DNA from: Naegleria gruberi
Lineage: Eukaryota
Reading direction: 5' to 3' (one strand)
Assembly: GCA_000004985.1 (NCBI GenBank)
Contig: GG738946.1
DNA: 34,929 nt
Positions within the stretch are counted from its first letter, which is position 1. Each line of letters begins with the position of its first letter. Below the pieces are notes generated by a model. The model saw only the letters and a list, made by a program, of their open reading frames with translations. It did not search any database and was not told the origin of the DNA. Both the position numbers and the translations under genes were made by a program. Shown here one piece after another: positions 8,083-31,126 of this stretch.

Positions 8083-11000
8083 CTACACAGACCACTGCAA
8101 TTCAACTTGTTCTTCTTCTTGAATGAACGACTCAGTATGCATTCTCTTATTTTGAATAATAATAACAATCAAAATGATAATGAGAATGAGTGGAATTATT
8201 CCAAGAAATCCTAAAAAACCAAGTTCAGCATTAGATTGCTTTCGTTTCATGATTTGAGAAGGCAAGTTATTAGATGATTCTGGAATGGTTAAAAATTCAA
8301 CCTTTTGAATAATAACTTCTTGAATAGTAACAGATTGTGCTTTTGAAGAACATTTACATTTGTAAATATTTCTATCTGAAAGTTCTGTATCACATTGAGA
8401 GAATTCACTTTGACAAATAACTTGTGAAGTTGTACTTATCTTTTTCATTGAAGTTGAATTAAATTCTTCTTCAATTGTAGAAGAATTTACAATTTTTTCA
8501 AATTGAAAATAATAAGAAATTAAGTTATTTGAAATTGAAATATTTTGATTTACAATTTCTGAATAAAGAGAATGATTAGCACTTCTTATAGTTGTTTGAA
8601 TGATGGTTGAGTTATCATTTACAATTAAAGTTTCATTCAATGTATTATAATAAATAGGTTTCATAATTAATCTTGAATAAACAACTTTTCTAAAATCAAA
8701 ATTATTAAAATAACTTAATGATGGATATTCTAAATATTTAAATCCATGATATTCAAATTTACTTTCAGATAAATCACTTGGATACATTTTTAAAGAAATA
8801 ACTAATGTCAAATCATTTTCAAAAATTACAGAACTTTTCACAAATTGACTTCTTTCTCTCAAAATCAATAAATCAGATAAACAATTCATAGTTTCATCAT
8901 AAAATTTGTTATTAATTGATAAATCTATTGATAATCTTGCTTTTACAATTAAAGAGAAAACATTTGACATTGTATTTACCAAATTTTCAGATAAAATTAA
9001 ATGTGTTAATTTCACTCCATCTTTCAATTGATTTTTAAAAATTATAAAAATTCTATTCAACATTTCGTTACATAATTCATCATAATTAATCAATAAATAA
9101 TACATTGTTGAAATTTGAGTTGATAATCTCTTTTCATTTTGAGGTTCATTCAAGTTTCTTTCTTCATATTCATCAAACATTATATTTAAAGTTTTAGATT
9201 TGGAATTTGAAATATCATTCCAATAAGTTTCATTCCAACTACAATCTAATTTTTTAAATCCTGGTAAACAGTTACATGTTTTAAATTGAGAATTATAAAT
9301 TCCACCATTAAAACATGTTGTCAATTGAGATAGAGTTGGTAAATACCTTCTTGCCATACCATCCACTGTTAATAATACATAACCAAAAACTAATTTTCTT
9401 GGATCACCTACTGGGATTGATTTATAGAATGTATCCCAAGAAGATTTCTTCAATTGAATTTCTGTCCAATTTGTTACATTTGGTAGGAGAATAGTTTGTT
9501 TTAGTTCTAATTCTGTATATGAATTAGAATAAATATTCCTAGTAGTAAAGAAGAGTGAAAGAGATTCAGAACCAGTGAAAGGAAGTTGAATATCAATTTG
9601 AGAAGATTTACCTTCATTGAGAGGAATTTTGAGTCCAGTTATAAAATCTAGGAATGAAATTTGTAATATTGTATCACTTGTAATACAACTAGAGCATGAG
9701 ATTGAAAATACAGTATCTAATGCATAACCAGTTAAAGGAGAAATAGAACAATTACATGGTTTAGGATTTAATGCAACATTAAAGTTATAAGAAAATGAAT
9801 CAAAAACCATTGATGAAATGTGAGTGACTTTGAAAGTTAAAATGTTTGAACTTCCTTCAATCAATTTAGATATTAATAAATTCATTGAATTAGATTTTGA
9901 AATATCCTTAACAACTCCTGTCAAATAATTAGATGGTAAATCATCTCCATTCAATTGCCATTTTCTTTCAATTTCTGAATCAATTCCATCAAATTTGTCA
10001 TTCAAACTCACAAGGAAATCCAATGATAGAATATCAAAAGTAGTTAATAATATTCTCTGAGGTGAAACATTCAATAAACTAATTTTTGGAATGTTTTCAA
10101 ATATTCTTTCTGAAACTTTGTTATTACCAATTTGAAGAGTTATATCAACTTGTTTAAGTGACTGAGGTATTTCAAATAATGTTTCTTTAAATTGTACAAC
10201 CCTTGTTAAAATATCAAGTAAAGATTGATCACATTGATGATTATCTTGAATACATGTAAAATTCCAATCAAACTTATTCAATAATATTGTTGATTCAATA
10301 GGAGTAATTTCTACATTCATAAGAACATGTTTGTTATCAAATATATTTGATTGATACATTATTATAGTATATTCAGGTTCCAAAGTGTGTAAAGTTATTT
10401 TCTCTGATGAAACTTTTCCAAAAATAGAAAGTATAACTTGAAATATATATTTGTTAGCCATAATATCAGAAAATGAATTAATCACCAAATCTCCATTGGA
10501 TTTTACATTAAAATCAACTGATGGTCCTTCAATTTGTTTCCATTCATATTTAATTTGGGATGTGATTGTTTCACTTAAATCTGAAAGGTCTGTATATTTT
10601 TTAATGTAAATAGGACAATTCAATGAATTAACAATCATAGATTGTGTATCATCTGCTACTTTAACTTGTGGAGCTACAAATTCTTGTTTTGTAAAATTGT
10701 AAACAATGGGATGACTACATTTAGCAAAATAATTACAAACTTCAAGTTGAAGTGAATAATTACCAGATGGAATTTCATCATATTTAAATGAAATAATTGA
10801 TGAACTATTATTAATGATTATTGGTTCAGGAGAATTGATAACATGCCAAATATAGATAATTTCATTGAAATTAATTAAAGAGCTAGTGCTAGAAGATGCA
10901 TCAATTACAATATCATCCAAAGCACCAAAGTTATGTGTTACAGTTGATAATTTAGCAATTGGTGTTGCTGGATTATCAGGAGGTTGAATTGAAATGAATA

Positions 11001-18844: not shown

Positions 18845-19827
18845 AAAATTGGAATGTACGTTAAATAGAAAACAAGGCTTGTTTTAATATTGTTGTTTTT
18901 TTGTTGAATATTAAATTGAGAGGGAGATTTTAAAGAGTGAACAAGACCTATTATGTGAACATGGATGCGCCCTTTTGAAGATTCTTCAAATTTCGCTTTT
19001 TTGCTTTTGTTTCGAAAGCCTTAGTGAAGCCACAACACGTTGATTGGATGATGACACGACCTAACGGTCATGCAATGTTTCCTATCATCAAAAAATCTAA
19101 CTTGACTACAATTCGGAAAGTCATTTGGTTACAAGAAGATTCACTGTAATTAATTCTAATAATGTTCACATGACTTTATTTGTGTGTTCTTTTGATCAAC
19201 ATTGCCTTACACAATTCAATTGAAGGTCAACATTTGTTAAATAATAATAATAATAATAATATTTGAACATTTGATAGAATATCATCTTAGAATTGTTTGA
19301 TTATTGATGTACTTTATATCTCAATTTTCCCAAATATACAAACATCTAAGTATATTTTGATAATCATATTCTGAACTTTATCATCGTTATGAATGTAAAA
19401 CAATATCATCCTTAATAAATGTGTTGATTATATCATTACACTCCTATAGTTTTTCTCTCTTTTTAAAAACCATTCTCACAAGTTTAAATTGACAACTAAC
19501 AACACTGCTTAAGTTTATTCAATACCTTAAAATAACCATTTAAATATTTATTCTATTCTCTTCTAATAAAAAGATTAGAAGTTAATTAGAAACAGTGGTG
19601 TCTATCATTCAGTTTAAATTTAAAAAAAAAATATATTGTCTCATCACTCTCGCAACATTCAAGAGAGTATTATATTTTATCACTCTTCTATCATCAAATA
19701 GTAGTAGATTATTATTAGTAGTAAATTAAAACACATATTGTCATCATCACATTGTATAACAACAATAACAATAACATCATCATCACTAATAATAATAATA
19801 ATAATAGGAAAAGGAATATAAATCTTT

Positions 19828-28436: not shown

Positions 28437-30821
28437 TTACATATTTAATTTCTTTAACATATTTTGTTTTGCTCTTTCCTTAATTGATAAAGCTCTATTT
28501 GTTACATTTGAAGAATTAGAATTGACATTTGAATTGATTGTAATATTTGTTGCTTGTGTTGTTGGTGTTGAATTAAAAAAGCTTGTATTAATTTGTGATA
28601 AATTCATTGAAATGTTTGAAATATTTGATTGATTCAATGAATGTGGAATTGCAGAAATATTCAATGTTGAATTATTATTATTATAATTATTTTTAGTATT
28701 ATTATTACTAGAATTAGATGATGAACTTGAAGTTGTACTCAATGTGGGTGAAACTTGTTGATTGGATGAATTATTATTAGAGTTAATACCATTATTTTGA
28801 GGAGTTGTAATTAATTCTTTTGGTGGTGTAATACTTTGTTTACAAGGTGGTGTTGGTGGTGCAGTATTTGAATCAATTAATACCTGTAATTTTTGTAAAG
28901 TAATTGTTGATGCTTTTTCCATTAATGAAGGTAATTCAACTTTAACTGTTTCAATTGGTGGAGAGGATAATTCTTCATCATCTTCTTTATTCAATAATAA
29001 ATTATTAAATGTATTACTATTTGTATTAATGATAGCATTATTGATATTTATAGTATTCTTTTTCTGTTGTGATAAAATAGATTGATAATTTGATAAAAAT
29101 GAATCTTCTTGATTTAAATCAAATTTATCTTGTTCTAATTGTAATGCTCTTGATTGTTGTCTATTTCTGACTTGTCGTTCAAAATTTTTAACTTCCATTA
29201 ATTTTAATGAGTTTTTATCCTTTTCAAGACTTTTAGAAATATTTTCAAATAAATTTGAAGAAATTGAATGTGTTAAATGTTGAACAACAACATCCTCATT
29301 ATCATCACGTATTGGATTTAAATCTTGTTGTTGATATGATTTACTACTATTAGGTGAAGGTATAGTTGGACAACTATCACTTCTTTTACTTCTTGCTTTT
29401 GCAAAATTAGCTAAATTCTTTAGTATTGCTGGATCATTATATATTGTTGTTGTTGTTGTAGTTGGAGTAGTGGAAGTGATAGTTGTTGATTGATTGGTTA
29501 GAGTTGATATTGTAGTATTATTACTATTATTGGATGTAATGTTATTATTAGAATTGTTATTATTGATCAATGTATTATTTGTAATGGTAGTATTACTAAA
29601 TGTTGGAATATTAGTTTTATGTGTTTTTAAATGTTCAATAATATAACTATGTTTCTTTAATAATTCTTCTGCTGATTTTAATTTTTCATCATTTACATTT
29701 TTATCATTGTTATTAATTATATTATTTGTAATATTATTATTTGTATTATTATTATTAGATTGTAAAGATAATTCAAAACTATTATTAATAGATGTATTAC
29801 CATTTATAGAATGTTTATCATCTTCTATTAAAGGAGATGCTAAAGTAGTTGCACCATTAATAAACCAAACATTTGAACATTTATCTAAAATTTCTTCAAA
29901 AATTAAATTTTCTTCATCAAGTGATTTAATTGGATTTCCTCTAAAATCTATATTTGTTAATAATTCCAATTCTAGAACTTGTTTCATATCTTGAAATGTT
30001 TCAATTTCATTTTTTTGTATATTTAAAATTTGTAAACTAAATTTTAATGGTAAAATTCCTTCAATTTTTTTAAGTTTATTATTACTTAAATCTAATACTT
30101 TAATATTACCATATATAGGAATTGAATAATTATTTATATTTGAAATTGAATTATTTTTTAATATTAAAAATTCTAAATTTGGAAATAATCTAACAATATT
30201 AAATAAACTTAATTTTGTTAAATTATTATTACTTAAATTTAAATATTGTAAAAATTGAATTGGATTATTTAATTTTCTGATTGTATCTTCAATTCTATTT
30301 ATATTATTATTTTCTAAATATAAATGACTAATTGAGGTAATTTTTTTTAATACAATATAATTTCTTAATTGTTCATTTAATAATTGAAAACATAATATTA
30401 TTTCATTTGTATTTAAATCTGTTTTAAATAATGAACTTTGATCATCATTATCAAGTATTATATTATTTAAATATAATGTTGTTGAATTTGTTGATGAATT
30501 GTTATTAATAGTTGGAGTAGGAGTAGAAGAATTGTTATGAGTATTAATTGAGGCACTTGATGATATATTAGTATTATTAGATGAATTATTGGATAAAGTA
30601 CGATTATGATGGTTACTAGTATTAAAAGTTGAAATATTTGATGATGATAAGGAATGAGGAAGGCTTGAAGATGATGCTGATTGAAGAAGAGATGAGAAGG
30701 ATGGTGTTATGTTTCCATTATTATTATTATTCAAAATAGATGAAATGGTTGTTGTAGGATAGGGAATTGAATGTGTTGTGTATCCTCTTGATGATGAGGC
30801 TGAATTGGGACGACTTCTCAT
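28437..30821 (-). CDS. Leucine-rich repeat protein with long N/S/T-rich low-complexity regions
   Basis: A single 794-codon frame. LRR units include LYLENNNINRIEDTI, LQYLNLSNNNLTKLSLFNI, LEFLILKNNSISNI, IKVLDLSNNKLKKIEG and LQILNIQKNEIETF. ATG at 30821 and stop at 28437. Confidence 0.7.
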   Translation of the reverse strand: MRSRPNSASSSRGYTTHSIPYPTTTISSILNNNNNGNITPSFSSLLQSASSSSLPHSLSSSNISTFNTSNHHNRTLSNNSSNNTNISSSASINTHNNSSTPTPTINNNSSTNSTTLYLNNIILDNDDQSSLFKTDLNTNEIILCFQLLNEQLRNYIVLKKITSISHLYLENNNINRIEDTIRKLNNPIQFLQYLNLSNNNLTKLSLFNIVRLFPNLEFLILKNNSISNINNYSIPIYGNIKVLDLSNNKLKKIEGILPLKFSLQILNIQKNEIETFQDMKQVLELELLTNIDFRGNPIKSLDEENLIFEEILDKCSNVWFINGATTLASPLIEDDKHSINGNTSINNSFELSLQSNNNNTNNNITNNIINNNDKNVNDEKLKSAEELLKKHSYIIEHLKTHKTNIPTFSNTTITNNTLINNNNSNNNITSNNSNNTTISTLTNQSTTITSTTPTTTTTTIYNDPAILKNLANFAKARSKRSDSCPTIPSPNSSKSYQQQDLNPIRDDNEDVVVQHLTHSISSNLFENISKSLEKDKNSLKLMEVKNFERQVRNRQQSRALQLEQDKFDLNQEDSFLSNYQSILSQQKKNTININNAIINTNSNTFNNLLLNKEDDEELSSPPIETVKVELPSLMEKASTITLQKLQVLIDSNTAPPTPPCKQSITPPKELITTPQNNGINSNNNSSNQQVSPTLSTTSSSSSNSSNNNTKNNYNNNNSTLNISAIPHSLNQSNISNISMNLSQINTSFFNSTPTTQATNITINSNVNSNSSNVTNRALSIKERAKQNMLKKLNM

Positions 30822-30888
30822 GATGATGATGATGAATTTATTAAGAGATTAAATATAAGGCTTTTTTTTGAATGATAAGGTATTTCAA

Positions 30889-30903
30889 TTTTGGCGCCAA
30901 AAA
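30889..30903. promoter_or_regulatory. Palindromic E2F-like site TTTTGGCGCCAAAAA in the divergent LRR/DHFR-TS promoter
   Basis: Perfect palindrome TTTTGGCGCCAAAA seen directly as a GC island in AT-rich DNA. It matches the E2F consensus TTTSGCGC in an inverted-overlapping arrangement. Confidence 0.45.
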
Positions 30904-31051
30904 TATACAGGTTGTTATCTTCTTAGTAAAATTTCACTTTGTGATATTGGAATGAGATGATTTTGTAAAAACACTCCAATCAATTCTCACCTATCTCTCA
31001 ACTGATTAGTGAAAAAGTTGATAAATCGTGGCTAGTCCAATAGAAATTTAA

Positions 31052-31061
31052 GGCGCCAAAA
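31052..31061. promoter_or_regulatory. Second E2F-like half-site GGCGCCAAAA about 70 nt upstream of the DHFR-TS ATG, next to a CCAAT box (31037-31041)
   Basis: aaggcgccaaaatt read directly. agtccaatag lies 15 nt upstream. Confidence 0.4.
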
Positions 31062-31126
31062 TTCAAAAACTATCCGTTAAATATTTTCCCACCATCACAA
31101 ACACTGAAAAAGAACAAAGAAAAAAA

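What the first reader, a model, noticed from the sequence alone, without database searches (positions are those of the whole stretch)
30822..31126. E2F-type palindrome TTTTGGCGCCAAAA and a GGCGCCAAAA half-site in the divergent DHFR-TS / LRR promoter
Two GC islands stand out in this otherwise AT-rich 305-bp bidirectional promoter. One is a perfect palindrome TTTTGGCGCCAAAAA (30889-30903). The other is GGCGCCAAAA (31052-31061), about 70 nt upstream of the DHFR-TS ATG and next to a CCAAT box.

Inverted overlapping TTTSGCGC sites are the classic E2F element of animal DHFR and TS promoters. Dictyostelids encode E2F/DP/Rb homologs.

This suggests conserved S-phase (E2F) control of dTMP synthesis genes. 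Both elements can be read directly in the sequence.
Basis: partly seen in the sequence, partly recalled or inferred. Interest (0 to 1): 0.55.

Follow-up and report, generated by a model that had tools for sequence, protein, structure and literature searches.

The report
Conserved E2F sites, Naegleria DHFR-TS promoter

Summary
TTTTGGCGCCAAAAA (30889-30903) and GGCGCCAAAA (31052-31061) are the only GGCGCC and the only TTTSSCGC matches in the 34.9-kb window (expected 0.07 and 0.15).

The organism is wrong. The DHFR-TS protein is 100% identical to a Naegleria gruberi protein on a 34,929-bp contig, so this is Heterolobosea, not a dictyostelid.

The E2F reading holds up:
- TTTTGGCGC is the longest GC-containing word shared by the DHFR-TS promoters of N. 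gruberi, N. fowleri and N. lovaniensis. Willaertia magna keeps TTGGCGC plus TTCCCGCCAAA despite different neighbouring genes.
- N. gruberi encodes E2F, DP, an E2F7/8-type DEL and RB. Its E2F recognition helix is identical to human E2F4.
- I predicted the motif for DEL, a classic E2F target, before looking. Its promoter carries two conserved E2F-type sites in four heterolobosean taxa.

Points against: the E2F gene's own promoter lacks the motif, the CCAAT box is not conserved, and W. magna carries the motif at several unrelated genes. S-phase periodicity, E2F binding and enrichment at RNR, PCNA or MCM genes could not be tested.

Verdict: real, conserved, probable E2F-family sites. This is a new member of a known kind, of moderate interest.

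The parts
30822..31126 (.). 305-bp divergent intergenic region between the LRR-like gene (minus strand) and DHFR-TS (plus strand). It acts as a bidirectional promoter.
   Evidence: ORF list and sequence. The head-to-head arrangement is conserved in N. fowleri and N. lovaniensis but not in W. magna.
30889..30903 (.). Distal perfect palindrome TTTTGGCGCCAAAA(A), made of two overlapping inverted TTTGGCGC half-sites. Proposed E2F-family site. It lies 68 bp from the LRR ATG and 224-238 bp from the DHFR-TS ATG.
   Evidence: The word TTTTGGCGC is shared with N. fowleri (-106) and N. lovaniensis (-97) and is never seen in 500 shuffles. It has no hairpin tendency (z = 0.16).
31052..31061 (-). Proximal E2F-type half-site. 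It reads TTTTGGCGCC on the minus strand and lies 66-75 nt upstream of the DHFR-TS ATG.
   Evidence: It aligns with AACGCCAAA in N. fowleri and with a decayed CAACCAAA in N. lovaniensis.
31074..31079 (+). CCGTTA (complement TAACGG, Myb-type core), 12 nt downstream of the proximal site. It is conserved in all three Naegleria DHFR-TS promoters and may be a co-element.
   Evidence: The k-mer footprint places it at Ng -53, Nf -70, Nl -61. W. magna has TCGTTA instead.
31038..31042 (+). It is probably not a conserved element.
   Evidence: Present. It is absent at the aligned position in N. fowleri and N. lovaniensis and is not among the shared words.
31127..32734 (+). Bifunctional dihydrofolate reductase-thymidylate synthase gene, intronless, 535 aa. 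This is the presumed regulated gene.
   Evidence: Pfam PF00186 plus PF00303. It is 100% identical to an N. gruberi predicted protein (P0001).
28437..30821 (-). Divergently transcribed 794-aa low-complexity protein with SDS22-type leucine-rich repeats. It is a possible second target of the distal palindrome.
   Evidence: ORF. It has no Pfam hit itself. Its orthologues have faint or weak LRR_4/LRR_8 hits.

Best explanation
The two GC islands are binding sites for E2F-family winged-helix factors in the promoter of the Naegleria gruberi DHFR-TS gene. The likely binders are the E2F-DP heterodimer and/or the two-domain E2F7/8-type protein DEL.

Each TTTGGCGC half-site offers the central GCGC that the RRXYD recognition helices of E2F and DP contact, flanked by the T-run that orients the dimer. 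The distal element is a perfect palindrome, so it can be bound in either orientation and can serve both divergent genes.

By analogy with animals and plants, RB-bound E2F would hold the gene down in non-cycling cells (G1, differentiating flagellates, cysts). CDK phosphorylation of RB would release it at G1/S, so that dTMP synthesis rises with DNA replication. DEL is itself under E2F-type sites, so it would close a negative feedback loop.

**Shown here:** the motif, its rarity, its conservation, the presence of the factors, and the motif at a second classic target.

**Inferred:** actual binding, the sign of regulation, and cell-cycle timing.
For: 1. All GGCGC C and TTTSSCGC matches of the 35-kb window fall in this 305-bp region.
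2. The motif is identical to the E2F-family HT-SELEX-type motif TTTGGCGCCAAA (PMC5449588). It is one base from the mammalian DHFR site (PMC3205837).
3. In N. fowleri the only TTTSSCGC in 21.8 kb lies in the orthologous promoter. N. lovaniensis has it too.
4. W. magna keeps TTGGCGC at -73 and TTCCCGCCAAA at about -50, although its neighbouring genes differ.
5. The only words with at least 3 G/C shared by the three Naegleria promoters are TTTTGGCGC and CCGTTA (0 of 500 shuffles).
6. N. gruberi E2F (EFC36120.1) aligns to human E2F4 in 1CF7 at E = 7e-25, with an identical [24 protein letters not shown] stretch. NgruDP, NgruDEL and NgruRB are in the source data of PMC4862756. E2F orthologues exist in N. 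lovaniensis, N. fowleri, W. magna and Acrasis kona.
7. RRXYD contacts the GCGC core (PMC4862756).
8. I chose the DEL gene as a test in advance (note). Its promoter has a TCCCGCC-type site plus a TTTGGCGC site in N. fowleri, N. lovaniensis and an N. gruberi-like contig, and two TTTGGCGC-type sites in a distant environmental homologue. Of 10 motif hits in 56 kb, 9 fall in 2.2% of the sequence.
9. Plant bifunctional DRTS2 and DRTS3 promoters have functional E2F sites (PMC5464667).
Against: - No binding or expression data exist for Naegleria. I found no paper on Naegleria E2F targets.
- The E2F gene's own promoter in N. lovaniensis has no motif in 21 kb. In W. magna the only nearby site lies inside annotated exon 1.
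- Canonical S-phase genes (RNR, PCNA, MCM) could not be retrieved, so regulon enrichment is untested.
- In W. magna, E2F-type sites also sit upstream of PIP5K, SMYD-like and lipase-like genes. In N. fowleri they sit upstream of an Elongin-C-like gene and an unknown gene. The motif is therefore not restricted to obvious replication genes.
- The proximal site has decayed in N. lovaniensis.
- It is not proven that the N. gruberi palindrome is the positional orthologue of the N. fowleri and N. lovaniensis site.
- In Arabidopsis the DRTS E2F sites act as general repressors rather than cell-cycle timers, so S-phase timing does not follow automatically.
- The conservation statistics use related, non-independent species.
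Confidence: 0.65

Rival explanations
1. The motifs are real, conserved cis-elements, but an unrelated Naegleria DNA-binding protein that prefers GGCGCC/CCCGCC reads them. This could be a GC-box zinc-finger or another winged-helix factor acting as a general promoter element rather than a cell-cycle switch.
For: The motif also occurs upstream of genes with no obvious replication role: PIP5K, SMYD-like and lipase-like genes in W. magna, and an Elongin-C-like gene and unknown genes in N. fowleri and N. lovaniensis. No binding data exist. The E2F gene's own promoter lacks the motif.
Against: The match extends beyond the GC core to the T/A flanks typical of E2F (TTTTGGCGCCAAAA, TTCCCGCCAAA). The cognate E2F and DP helices are unchanged from human. 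The two promoters where the motif is most consistently conserved, DHFR-TS and the E2F7/8-type gene, are textbook E2F targets. Only a minority of the roughly 80 promoters examined carry the motif.
Confidence: 0.15
2. The distal palindrome mainly serves the divergent LRR gene or both genes. Only the proximal half-site controls DHFR-TS.
For: The palindrome is 68 bp from the LRR ATG but 224-238 bp from the DHFR-TS ATG. In N. fowleri and N. lovaniensis the single strong site lies near the middle of a ~220-bp shared promoter. A palindrome is orientation-free.
Against: In W. magna the LRR gene is not the neighbour (a PH-domain gene and a tRNA-Asp are), yet the E2F-type sites stay with DHFR-TS. This rival is compatible with the main explanation and does not exclude it.
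Confidence: 0.15
3. The GC islands are chance occurrences or neutral remnants with no regulatory role.
For: The motifs are short. The related species are not independent samples. The proximal site has decayed in N. lovaniensis.
Against: Three matches are observed against 0.15 expected, all within 305 bp. The motif is retained in three further species while the surrounding intergenic sequence has diverged to the point of being barely alignable. The same motif recurs at DEL promoters.
Confidence: 0.04
4. The palindrome acts through nucleic-acid structure (a cruciform or an RNA hairpin) or belongs to a small RNA gene in the spacer.
For: It is a perfect 14-bp palindrome. There is a weak snoRNA-like Rfam hit at 30782-30862 (E = 0.057, 22.6 bits against a gathering score of 48).
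Against: The hairpin is worth only -1.8 kcal/mol, with z = 0.16 against shuffles. The Rfam hit is far below threshold and does not cover the palindrome. There is no tRNA here. Orthologous sites keep only one half-site (TTTTGGCGCT), not the palindrome.
Confidence: 0.01

Closest known systems
Overlapping inverted E2F sites of mammalian DHFR promoters (TTTCGCGCCAAA)
   Same: Both are dyad-symmetric pairs of TTTSGCGC half-sites sharing a central GCGC, placed close upstream of a dihydrofolate reductase coding region. The sequences differ by one base.
   Different: The Naegleria gene is the fused DHFR-TS. There are two separate sites 150 bp apart in a bidirectional promoter. The position relative to the transcription start is unknown. 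Binding and G1/S activation are demonstrated in mammals and not here.
E2F cis-elements of Arabidopsis bifunctional DRTS2/DRTS3 promoters (PMC5464667)
   Same: The gene architecture (DHFR-TS fusion), the divergent neighbouring gene and the E2F-type site in the shared intergenic region are the same.
   Different: The plant sites are the TCCCGCC type (TCTCCCGCC, CGTCCCGCC), lie at -199 and -1591, and were shown to repress generally rather than to time expression. The Naegleria sites are the GGCGCC type, although W. magna uses TTCCCGCCAAA.
E2F-dependent promoters of atypical E2F genes (human E2F7/E2F8, Arabidopsis DEL1). The comparison rests on my own knowledge of that literature.
   Same: The Naegleria DEL orthologues carry two conserved E2F-type sites within about 250 bp of the ATG. 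This suggests the same E2F-to-atypical-E2F feedback wiring.
   Different: It is only inferred from sequence here. This feature lies outside the window and serves as supporting evidence for the regulon.
CDE/CHR (DREAM) bipartite elements of animal G2/M genes
   Same: N. gruberi has GGCGCC-AAAA-TTCAAA, a GC core followed 4 nt later by the complement of the CHR hexamer TTTGAA.
   Different: The CHR-like hexamer is in the opposite orientation. It is not conserved in N. fowleri (TTCAGA) or N. lovaniensis (TTCCAT). I do not file the element here.

Membership tests
E2F/DP-family binding site | Sequence matches the consensus TTTSSCGC (GCGC/GCGG core with a T-run flank) | tested here: met
   There are three strict matches at 30890(+), 30894(-) and 31053(-). 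The 12-mer TTTGGCGCCAAA equals the E2F-family motif listed in PMC5449588.
E2F/DP-family binding site | The organism encodes E2F and DP with the invariant RRXYD recognition motif | tested here: met
   NgruE2F has KRRIYD and aligns to E2F4 in 1CF7 at E = 7e-25. NgruDP has RRRVYD and NgruDEL has KRRIYD. Pfam gives PF02319 plus PF16421. The role of RRXYD is described in PMC4862756.
E2F/DP-family binding site | Located in the proximal promoter of a DNA-synthesis or cell-cycle gene | tested here: met
   The sites lie 66-75 nt and 224-238 nt upstream of the DHFR-TS ATG. The transcription start is unknown.
E2F/DP-family binding site | Conserved in orthologous promoters (phylogenetic footprint) | tested here: met
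   N. fowleri, N. lovaniensis and W. magna all keep it.
E2F/DP-family binding site | Recurs at other canonical E2F targets in the same lineage (regulon) | tested here: inconclusive
   The result is positive at DEL (E2F7/8-type) promoters in four taxa. It is negative at the N. lovaniensis E2F promoter and ambiguous in W. magna. RNR, PCNA and MCM genes could not be retrieved.
E2F/DP-family binding site | Physical binding by E2F-DP (EMSA, ChIP, DAP-seq) | not testable with these tools
   No such data were found for Naegleria.
E2F/DP-family binding site | Confers cell-cycle-dependent (G1/S) or RB-dependent transcription | not testable with these tools
   Mitotic synchrony methods exist for N. gruberi, but only tubulin transcripts were reported (PMC9036621).
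CCAAT box (NF-Y site) | CCAAT pentamer at a conserved promoter position | tested here: not met
   CCAAT is present at 31038-31042 in N. gruberi only. It is absent from the aligned region of N. fowleri and N. lovaniensis and from the shared-word list.
Myb-type site (YAACKG) | TAACGG core conserved next to the E2F site | tested here: inconclusive
   CCGTTA is conserved in the three Naegleria DHFR-TS promoters, 7-12 nt from the proximal site. W. magna has TCGTTA, and DEL promoters have C(T/A)CGTTACA, which does not fit YAACKG. No factor has been identified.
CDE/CHR (DREAM) element | GC-rich CDE followed after 4 nt by the CHR TTTGAA on the same strand, conserved | tested here: not met
   The hexamer is inverted (TTCAAA) and is not conserved in N. 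fowleri or N. lovaniensis.

The most novel reading that the evidence does not exclude
The core E2F cis-regulatory circuit is conserved in Discoba and therefore probably dates to the last eukaryotic common ancestor. The circuit consists of E2F-type sites on the dTMP-synthesis gene, an E2F-to-atypical-E2F (DEL) feedback loop, and possibly a fixed partner element (CGTTA/TAACG) beside the E2F site. If so, Naegleria would give the first cis-regulatory evidence, beyond mere presence of the proteins, for an ancestral E2F regulon outside animals, plants and amoebozoans.
Probability: 0.45. Interest if true: 0.55.

Novelty: new member of a known kind. Interest (0 to 1): 0.4.

Why it matters
E2F, DP and RB proteins have been inferred for the last eukaryotic common ancestor from gene presence alone (PMC4862756). 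Whether the target-gene wiring is equally old is hardly documented outside animals and plants.

Here the same palindromic site that controls mammalian DHFR is found, under purifying conservation, on the fused DHFR-TS gene of a heterolobosean and on its E2F7/8-type gene. This gives a concrete, testable example of deep conservation of a cis-regulatory link.

It also offers a sequence handle (TTTGGCGC) for defining proliferation-linked genes in Naegleria, a genus that includes the pathogen N. fowleri, where DHFR-TS is a potential antifolate target. The result is what theory would predict, so it confirms expectation and does not overturn it.

Tried and rejected
- **Dictyostelid origin.** Rejected. 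P0001 is an N. gruberi protein on a contig of exactly the window's length.
- **Promoters of classical S-phase genes.** I looked for N. gruberi RNR and MCM protein sequences in paper supplements so that I could fetch their loci. Only trees and accession lists are held. Queries with foreign sequences would not have brought Naegleria into the 120 listed hits.
- **N. gruberi E2F locus.** The exact-match look-up returned nothing, so the N. gruberi E2F promoter itself was not seen.
- **E2F autoregulation.** Not found in N. lovaniensis. In W. magna the only site lies in annotated exon 1.
- **Identity of the 229/230-aa gene** that carries ATGGCGCCAAAA in N. fowleri and N. lovaniensis. Pfam gives only a sub-threshold viral-cyclin-like hit (E = 0.0013) and PDB gives nothing. 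No orthologue is in the window.
- **Hairpin or cruciform and ncRNA readings.** Rejected.
- **CCAAT box and CDE/CHR readings.** Not conserved.
- **W. magna AAA and SMYD-like neighbours as hidden replication genes.** Nothing supports this.
- **Literature on Naegleria E2F targets or promoter motifs.** None found.

Full report
**Observation.** The sequence read shows TTTTGGCGCCAAAAA at 30889-30903 and GGCGCCAAAA at 31052-31061. CCAAT is at 31038-31042. The ATG of a 535-aa ORF is at 31127, and the ATG of a divergent 794-aa ORF is at 30821 on the minus strand. Pfam confirms that the plus-strand ORF is a bifunctional DHFR-TS (PF00186 plus PF00303). The motifs are far from chance. GGCGCC occurs twice in 34.9 kb, both times here (expected 0.07). 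GGCGCCAAAA with up to one mismatch gives three matches, all here (expected 0.17). The E2F consensus TTTSSCGC also gives three matches, all here (expected 0.15).

**Organism.** The DHFR-TS protein is 100% identical to 'predicted protein [Naegleria gruberi]' on a contig of 34,929 bp, exactly the window's length. The next best relatives are N. fowleri (66%), Willaertia magna (57%) and N. lovaniensis. The window is therefore a Naegleria gruberi scaffold (Heterolobosea, Discoba). The argument that 'dictyostelids encode E2F/DP/Rb' is irrelevant and has to be rebuilt for Naegleria.

**Are the factors there?** The source data of Medina et al. 2016 (PMC4862756) contain NgruE2F, NgruDP, NgruDEL (an E2F7/8-type protein with two DNA-binding domains) and NgruRB.
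- NgruE2F is in the protein collection as EFC36120.1/XP_002668864.1 of N. gruberi.
- Residues 63-131 align to the DNA-bound human E2F4 domain (PDB 1CF7) at E = 7e-25. The recognition-helix stretch [24 protein letters not shown] is identical. The coiled-coil/marked-box region matches E2F4 and E2F5.
- NgruDP carries NIRRRVYDALNVLMALNII.
- The RRXYD motif contacts the GCGC core (PMC4862756).
- E2F orthologues with PF02319 plus PF16421 exist in N. lovaniensis, N. fowleri, W. magna and Acrasis kona.

The proteins needed to read TTTGGCGC are therefore present and unchanged at the DNA-contacting positions.

**Conservation at DHFR-TS.** I fetched the orthologous loci.
- In N. fowleri and N. lovaniensis the LRR / DHFR-TS / SWIM gene order is conserved and the shared spacer is about 220 bp.
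- N. fowleri has TTTTTTTTGGCGCTAAAAA followed about 20 bp later by AACGCCAAATTTCAGACCGTTA. This is the only TTTSSCGC in 21.8 kb (expected 0.25).
- N. lovaniensis has TTTTTTTTGGCGCTCAAA. Its second site has decayed to CAACCAAATTTCCATCCGTTA.
- W. magna has different neighbours (a PH-domain gene and a tRNA-Asp). It still has TGTTGGCGCTTAA at -73 and CTTCCCGCCAAAC at about -50.
- Whole-spacer alignments are poor. A word count is clearer. The only words with at least 3 G/C shared by all three Naegleria spacers are those of TTTTGGCGC (Ng -238, Nf -106, Nl -97) and CCGTTA (Ng -53, Nf -70, Nl -61). None appears in 500 shuffles.
- The N. gruberi proximal site aligns with the N. fowleri AACGCCAAA site.
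- It cannot be settled whether the N. gruberi distal palindrome is the positional orthologue of the N. fowleri and N. lovaniensis strong site, separated by a ~150-bp insertion, or a product of site turnover.
- The CCAAT box is not conserved.

**A test chosen in advance.** I could not retrieve Naegleria RNR, PCNA or MCM genes. Supplements held only trees and accession lists. I therefore used the cell-cycle proteins available from PMC4862756.

The E2F gene itself gave a negative or ambiguous result. There is no TTTSSCGC anywhere in the 21-kb N. lovaniensis E2F locus. In W. magna there is a TAACGG-N8-TTTGGCGC element, but it lies inside annotated exon 1. This is not very damaging, because the single Naegleria E2F is most similar to E2F4/5, which are not autoregulated in animals (my own knowledge).

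I then predicted that the atypical E2F gene (DEL), a hallmark E2F target in animals and plants, should carry the motif (note). It does.
- N. fowleri has TCCCGCC at 9797 and TTTTGGCGC at 9927, with the ATG at 10001.
- N. lovaniensis has TTTCCCGCC at 9769 and TTTTGGCGC at 9913.
- An environmental contig that is 97-99.7% identical to NgruDEL has TTCCCGCC at -161 and GTTTGGCGCC at -47 from the true ATG, mapped by tblastn.
- A distant environmental homologue (40% identity) has AACGCGCCAAAAG and TTTTTGGCGCTG.

All four share the layout: site 1, then C(T/A)CGTTACA, then CCCTCT..TTTGGCGC. In the four DEL loci, 9 of 10 motif hits fall in the 2.2% of sequence that is DEL promoter. These counts include overlapping patterns and related species, so the computed P-values are illustrative only.

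**Specificity and caveats.**
- The motif is not confined to obvious replication genes. ATGGCGCCAA(AA) lies 60-90 bp upstream of an unidentified 229/230-aa gene in N. fowleri and N. lovaniensis.
- ATGGCGCCAAAA lies 170 bp upstream of an unknown N. fowleri gene, and TTGGCGCAAAAA lies 11 bp upstream of an Elongin-C-like gene.
- In W. magna, TCCCGCC-type sites sit upstream of PIP5K, SMYD-like and lipase-like genes, and TTTGCCGC sits upstream of an MGMT-like gene.
- E2F regulons elsewhere are broad, so this does not contradict the reading. It does leave room for a different GC-box factor.
- No Naegleria binding or cell-cycle expression data were found.
- In Arabidopsis the E2F sites of the bifunctional DRTS2 and DRTS3 genes repress generally rather than time expression (PMC5464667). 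S-phase timing is therefore an inference, not a consequence.

**Rivals dismissed.** The palindrome has no hairpin tendency (-1.8 kcal/mol, z = 0.16), and its orthologues keep only one half-site. Rfam gives only a sub-threshold snoRNA-like hit that does not cover the motif. There is no tRNA in the spacer.

**Mechanism.** The most likely mechanism (confidence about 0.65) is that E2F-DP and/or DEL bind the TTTGGCGC half-sites. RB-dependent repression outside S phase and de-repression or activation at G1/S would couple dTMP synthesis to replication. DEL, itself under E2F-type sites, would provide feedback. The distal palindrome is symmetric and closer to the LRR gene, so it may serve both divergent genes. 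The W. magna arrangement shows that the motif travels with DHFR-TS. A conserved CCGTTA (TAACGG) element 7-12 nt from the proximal site may mark a partner factor, but the evidence is thin.

**Comparison and novelty.** The closest known cases are three. The first is the overlapping inverted E2F sites of mammalian DHFR (ATTTCGCGCCAAACT; PMC3205837). The second is the E2F-family HT-SELEX-type motif TTTGGCGCCAAA (PMC5449588). The third is the E2F elements of plant DHFR-TS genes. The Naegleria element meets the sequence, factor-presence, position and conservation criteria. Its regulon criterion is partly met, and binding and periodicity are untestable here. It is a new member of a known kind. It is expected in theory, undocumented in Discoba as far as the searchable literature shows, and useful as cis-regulatory evidence for an ancestral E2F circuit. 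Interest 0.4.

Noticed in passing
whole window (1-34929): The window is a complete 34,929-bp Naegleria gruberi scaffold, not a dictyostelid sequence. It contains two runs of N (about 1.0-3.2 kb and 14.5-16.1 kb; 3,948 N in all).
   Followed up: yes
protein P0002: A 'hypothetical protein F2Q70_00033956 [Brassica cretica]' (566 aa, TS domain) scores 863 bits against the Naegleria DHFR-TS. That is higher than the N. fowleri orthologue scores. It suggests Naegleria-like contamination of that plant assembly, or a transfer.
   Followed up: no
window 31074-31079; L001 9925; L002 9243: CCGTTA (complement TAACGG, a Myb-type core) is conserved 7-12 nt downstream of the proximal E2F-type site in all three Naegleria DHFR-TS promoters. 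A related C(T/A)CGTTACA follows the first E2F-type site in all four DEL promoters. W. magna E2F exon 1 has TAACGG-N8-TTTGGCGC. This may be a partner element.
   Followed up: partly
L001 3790-3806; L002 3418-3435: A conserved ATGGCGCCAA(AA) E2F-type palindrome lies 60-90 bp upstream of an unannotated 229/230-aa gene in N. fowleri and N. lovaniensis. The gene has only a sub-threshold Pfam hit to a baculoviral cyclin-like family and has no orthologue in the window.
   Followed up: partly
L006 21630-21650 and 19460-19480: N. fowleri has AAAATGGCGCCAAAA about 170 bp upstream of an unknown gene. It also has TTGGCGCAAAAA 11 bp upstream of a 119-aa Elongin-C-like gene. These are further candidate members of the motif's regulon.
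   Followed up: partly
L002 9304-10000: The N. lovaniensis DHFR-TS gene model is truncated to the TS half (392 aa). The DHFR half and the real ATG (~9304) lie upstream. The reading frame is interrupted (stop at ~9678), either by an intron or by an assembly error.
   Followed up: partly
L003 (W. magna) 2730, 5332, 9953, 18901-18946: TCCCGCC/TTTGGCGG sites are about 10-fold over-represented in this 25%-GC locus (5 TTTSSCGS against 0.5 expected). They sit in several promoters (PIP5K, SMYD-like, lipase-like). The motif seems more widely used in Willaertia than in Naegleria.
   Followed up: partly
L003 9708-9778: A tRNA-Asp(GTC) gene lies about 220 bp upstream of the W. magna DHFR-TS ATG, where the LRR gene sits in Naegleria.
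   Followed up: yes
window 34400-34487: ARAGORN calls an 88-nt tRNA-like gene with an undetermined four-base anticodon (gatt). It may be an intron-containing tRNA or a false call.
   Followed up: no
L008 (ENA ERZ929261, 8.1-kb metagenome contig): An environmental contig encodes a DEL protein 97-99.7% identical to N. gruberi DEL, so a close N. gruberi relative is present in that metagenome. The contig's gene caller splits the gene and starts it 100 bp too early, inside the promoter.
   Followed up: partly
window 33161-33511 and L001 11929-12728: A small SWIM zinc-finger protein gene directly downstream of DHFR-TS is syntenic in N. gruberi, N. fowleri and N. lovaniensis. The upstream Swi5-domain and mRNA triphosphatase genes are syntenic as well.
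   Followed up: no
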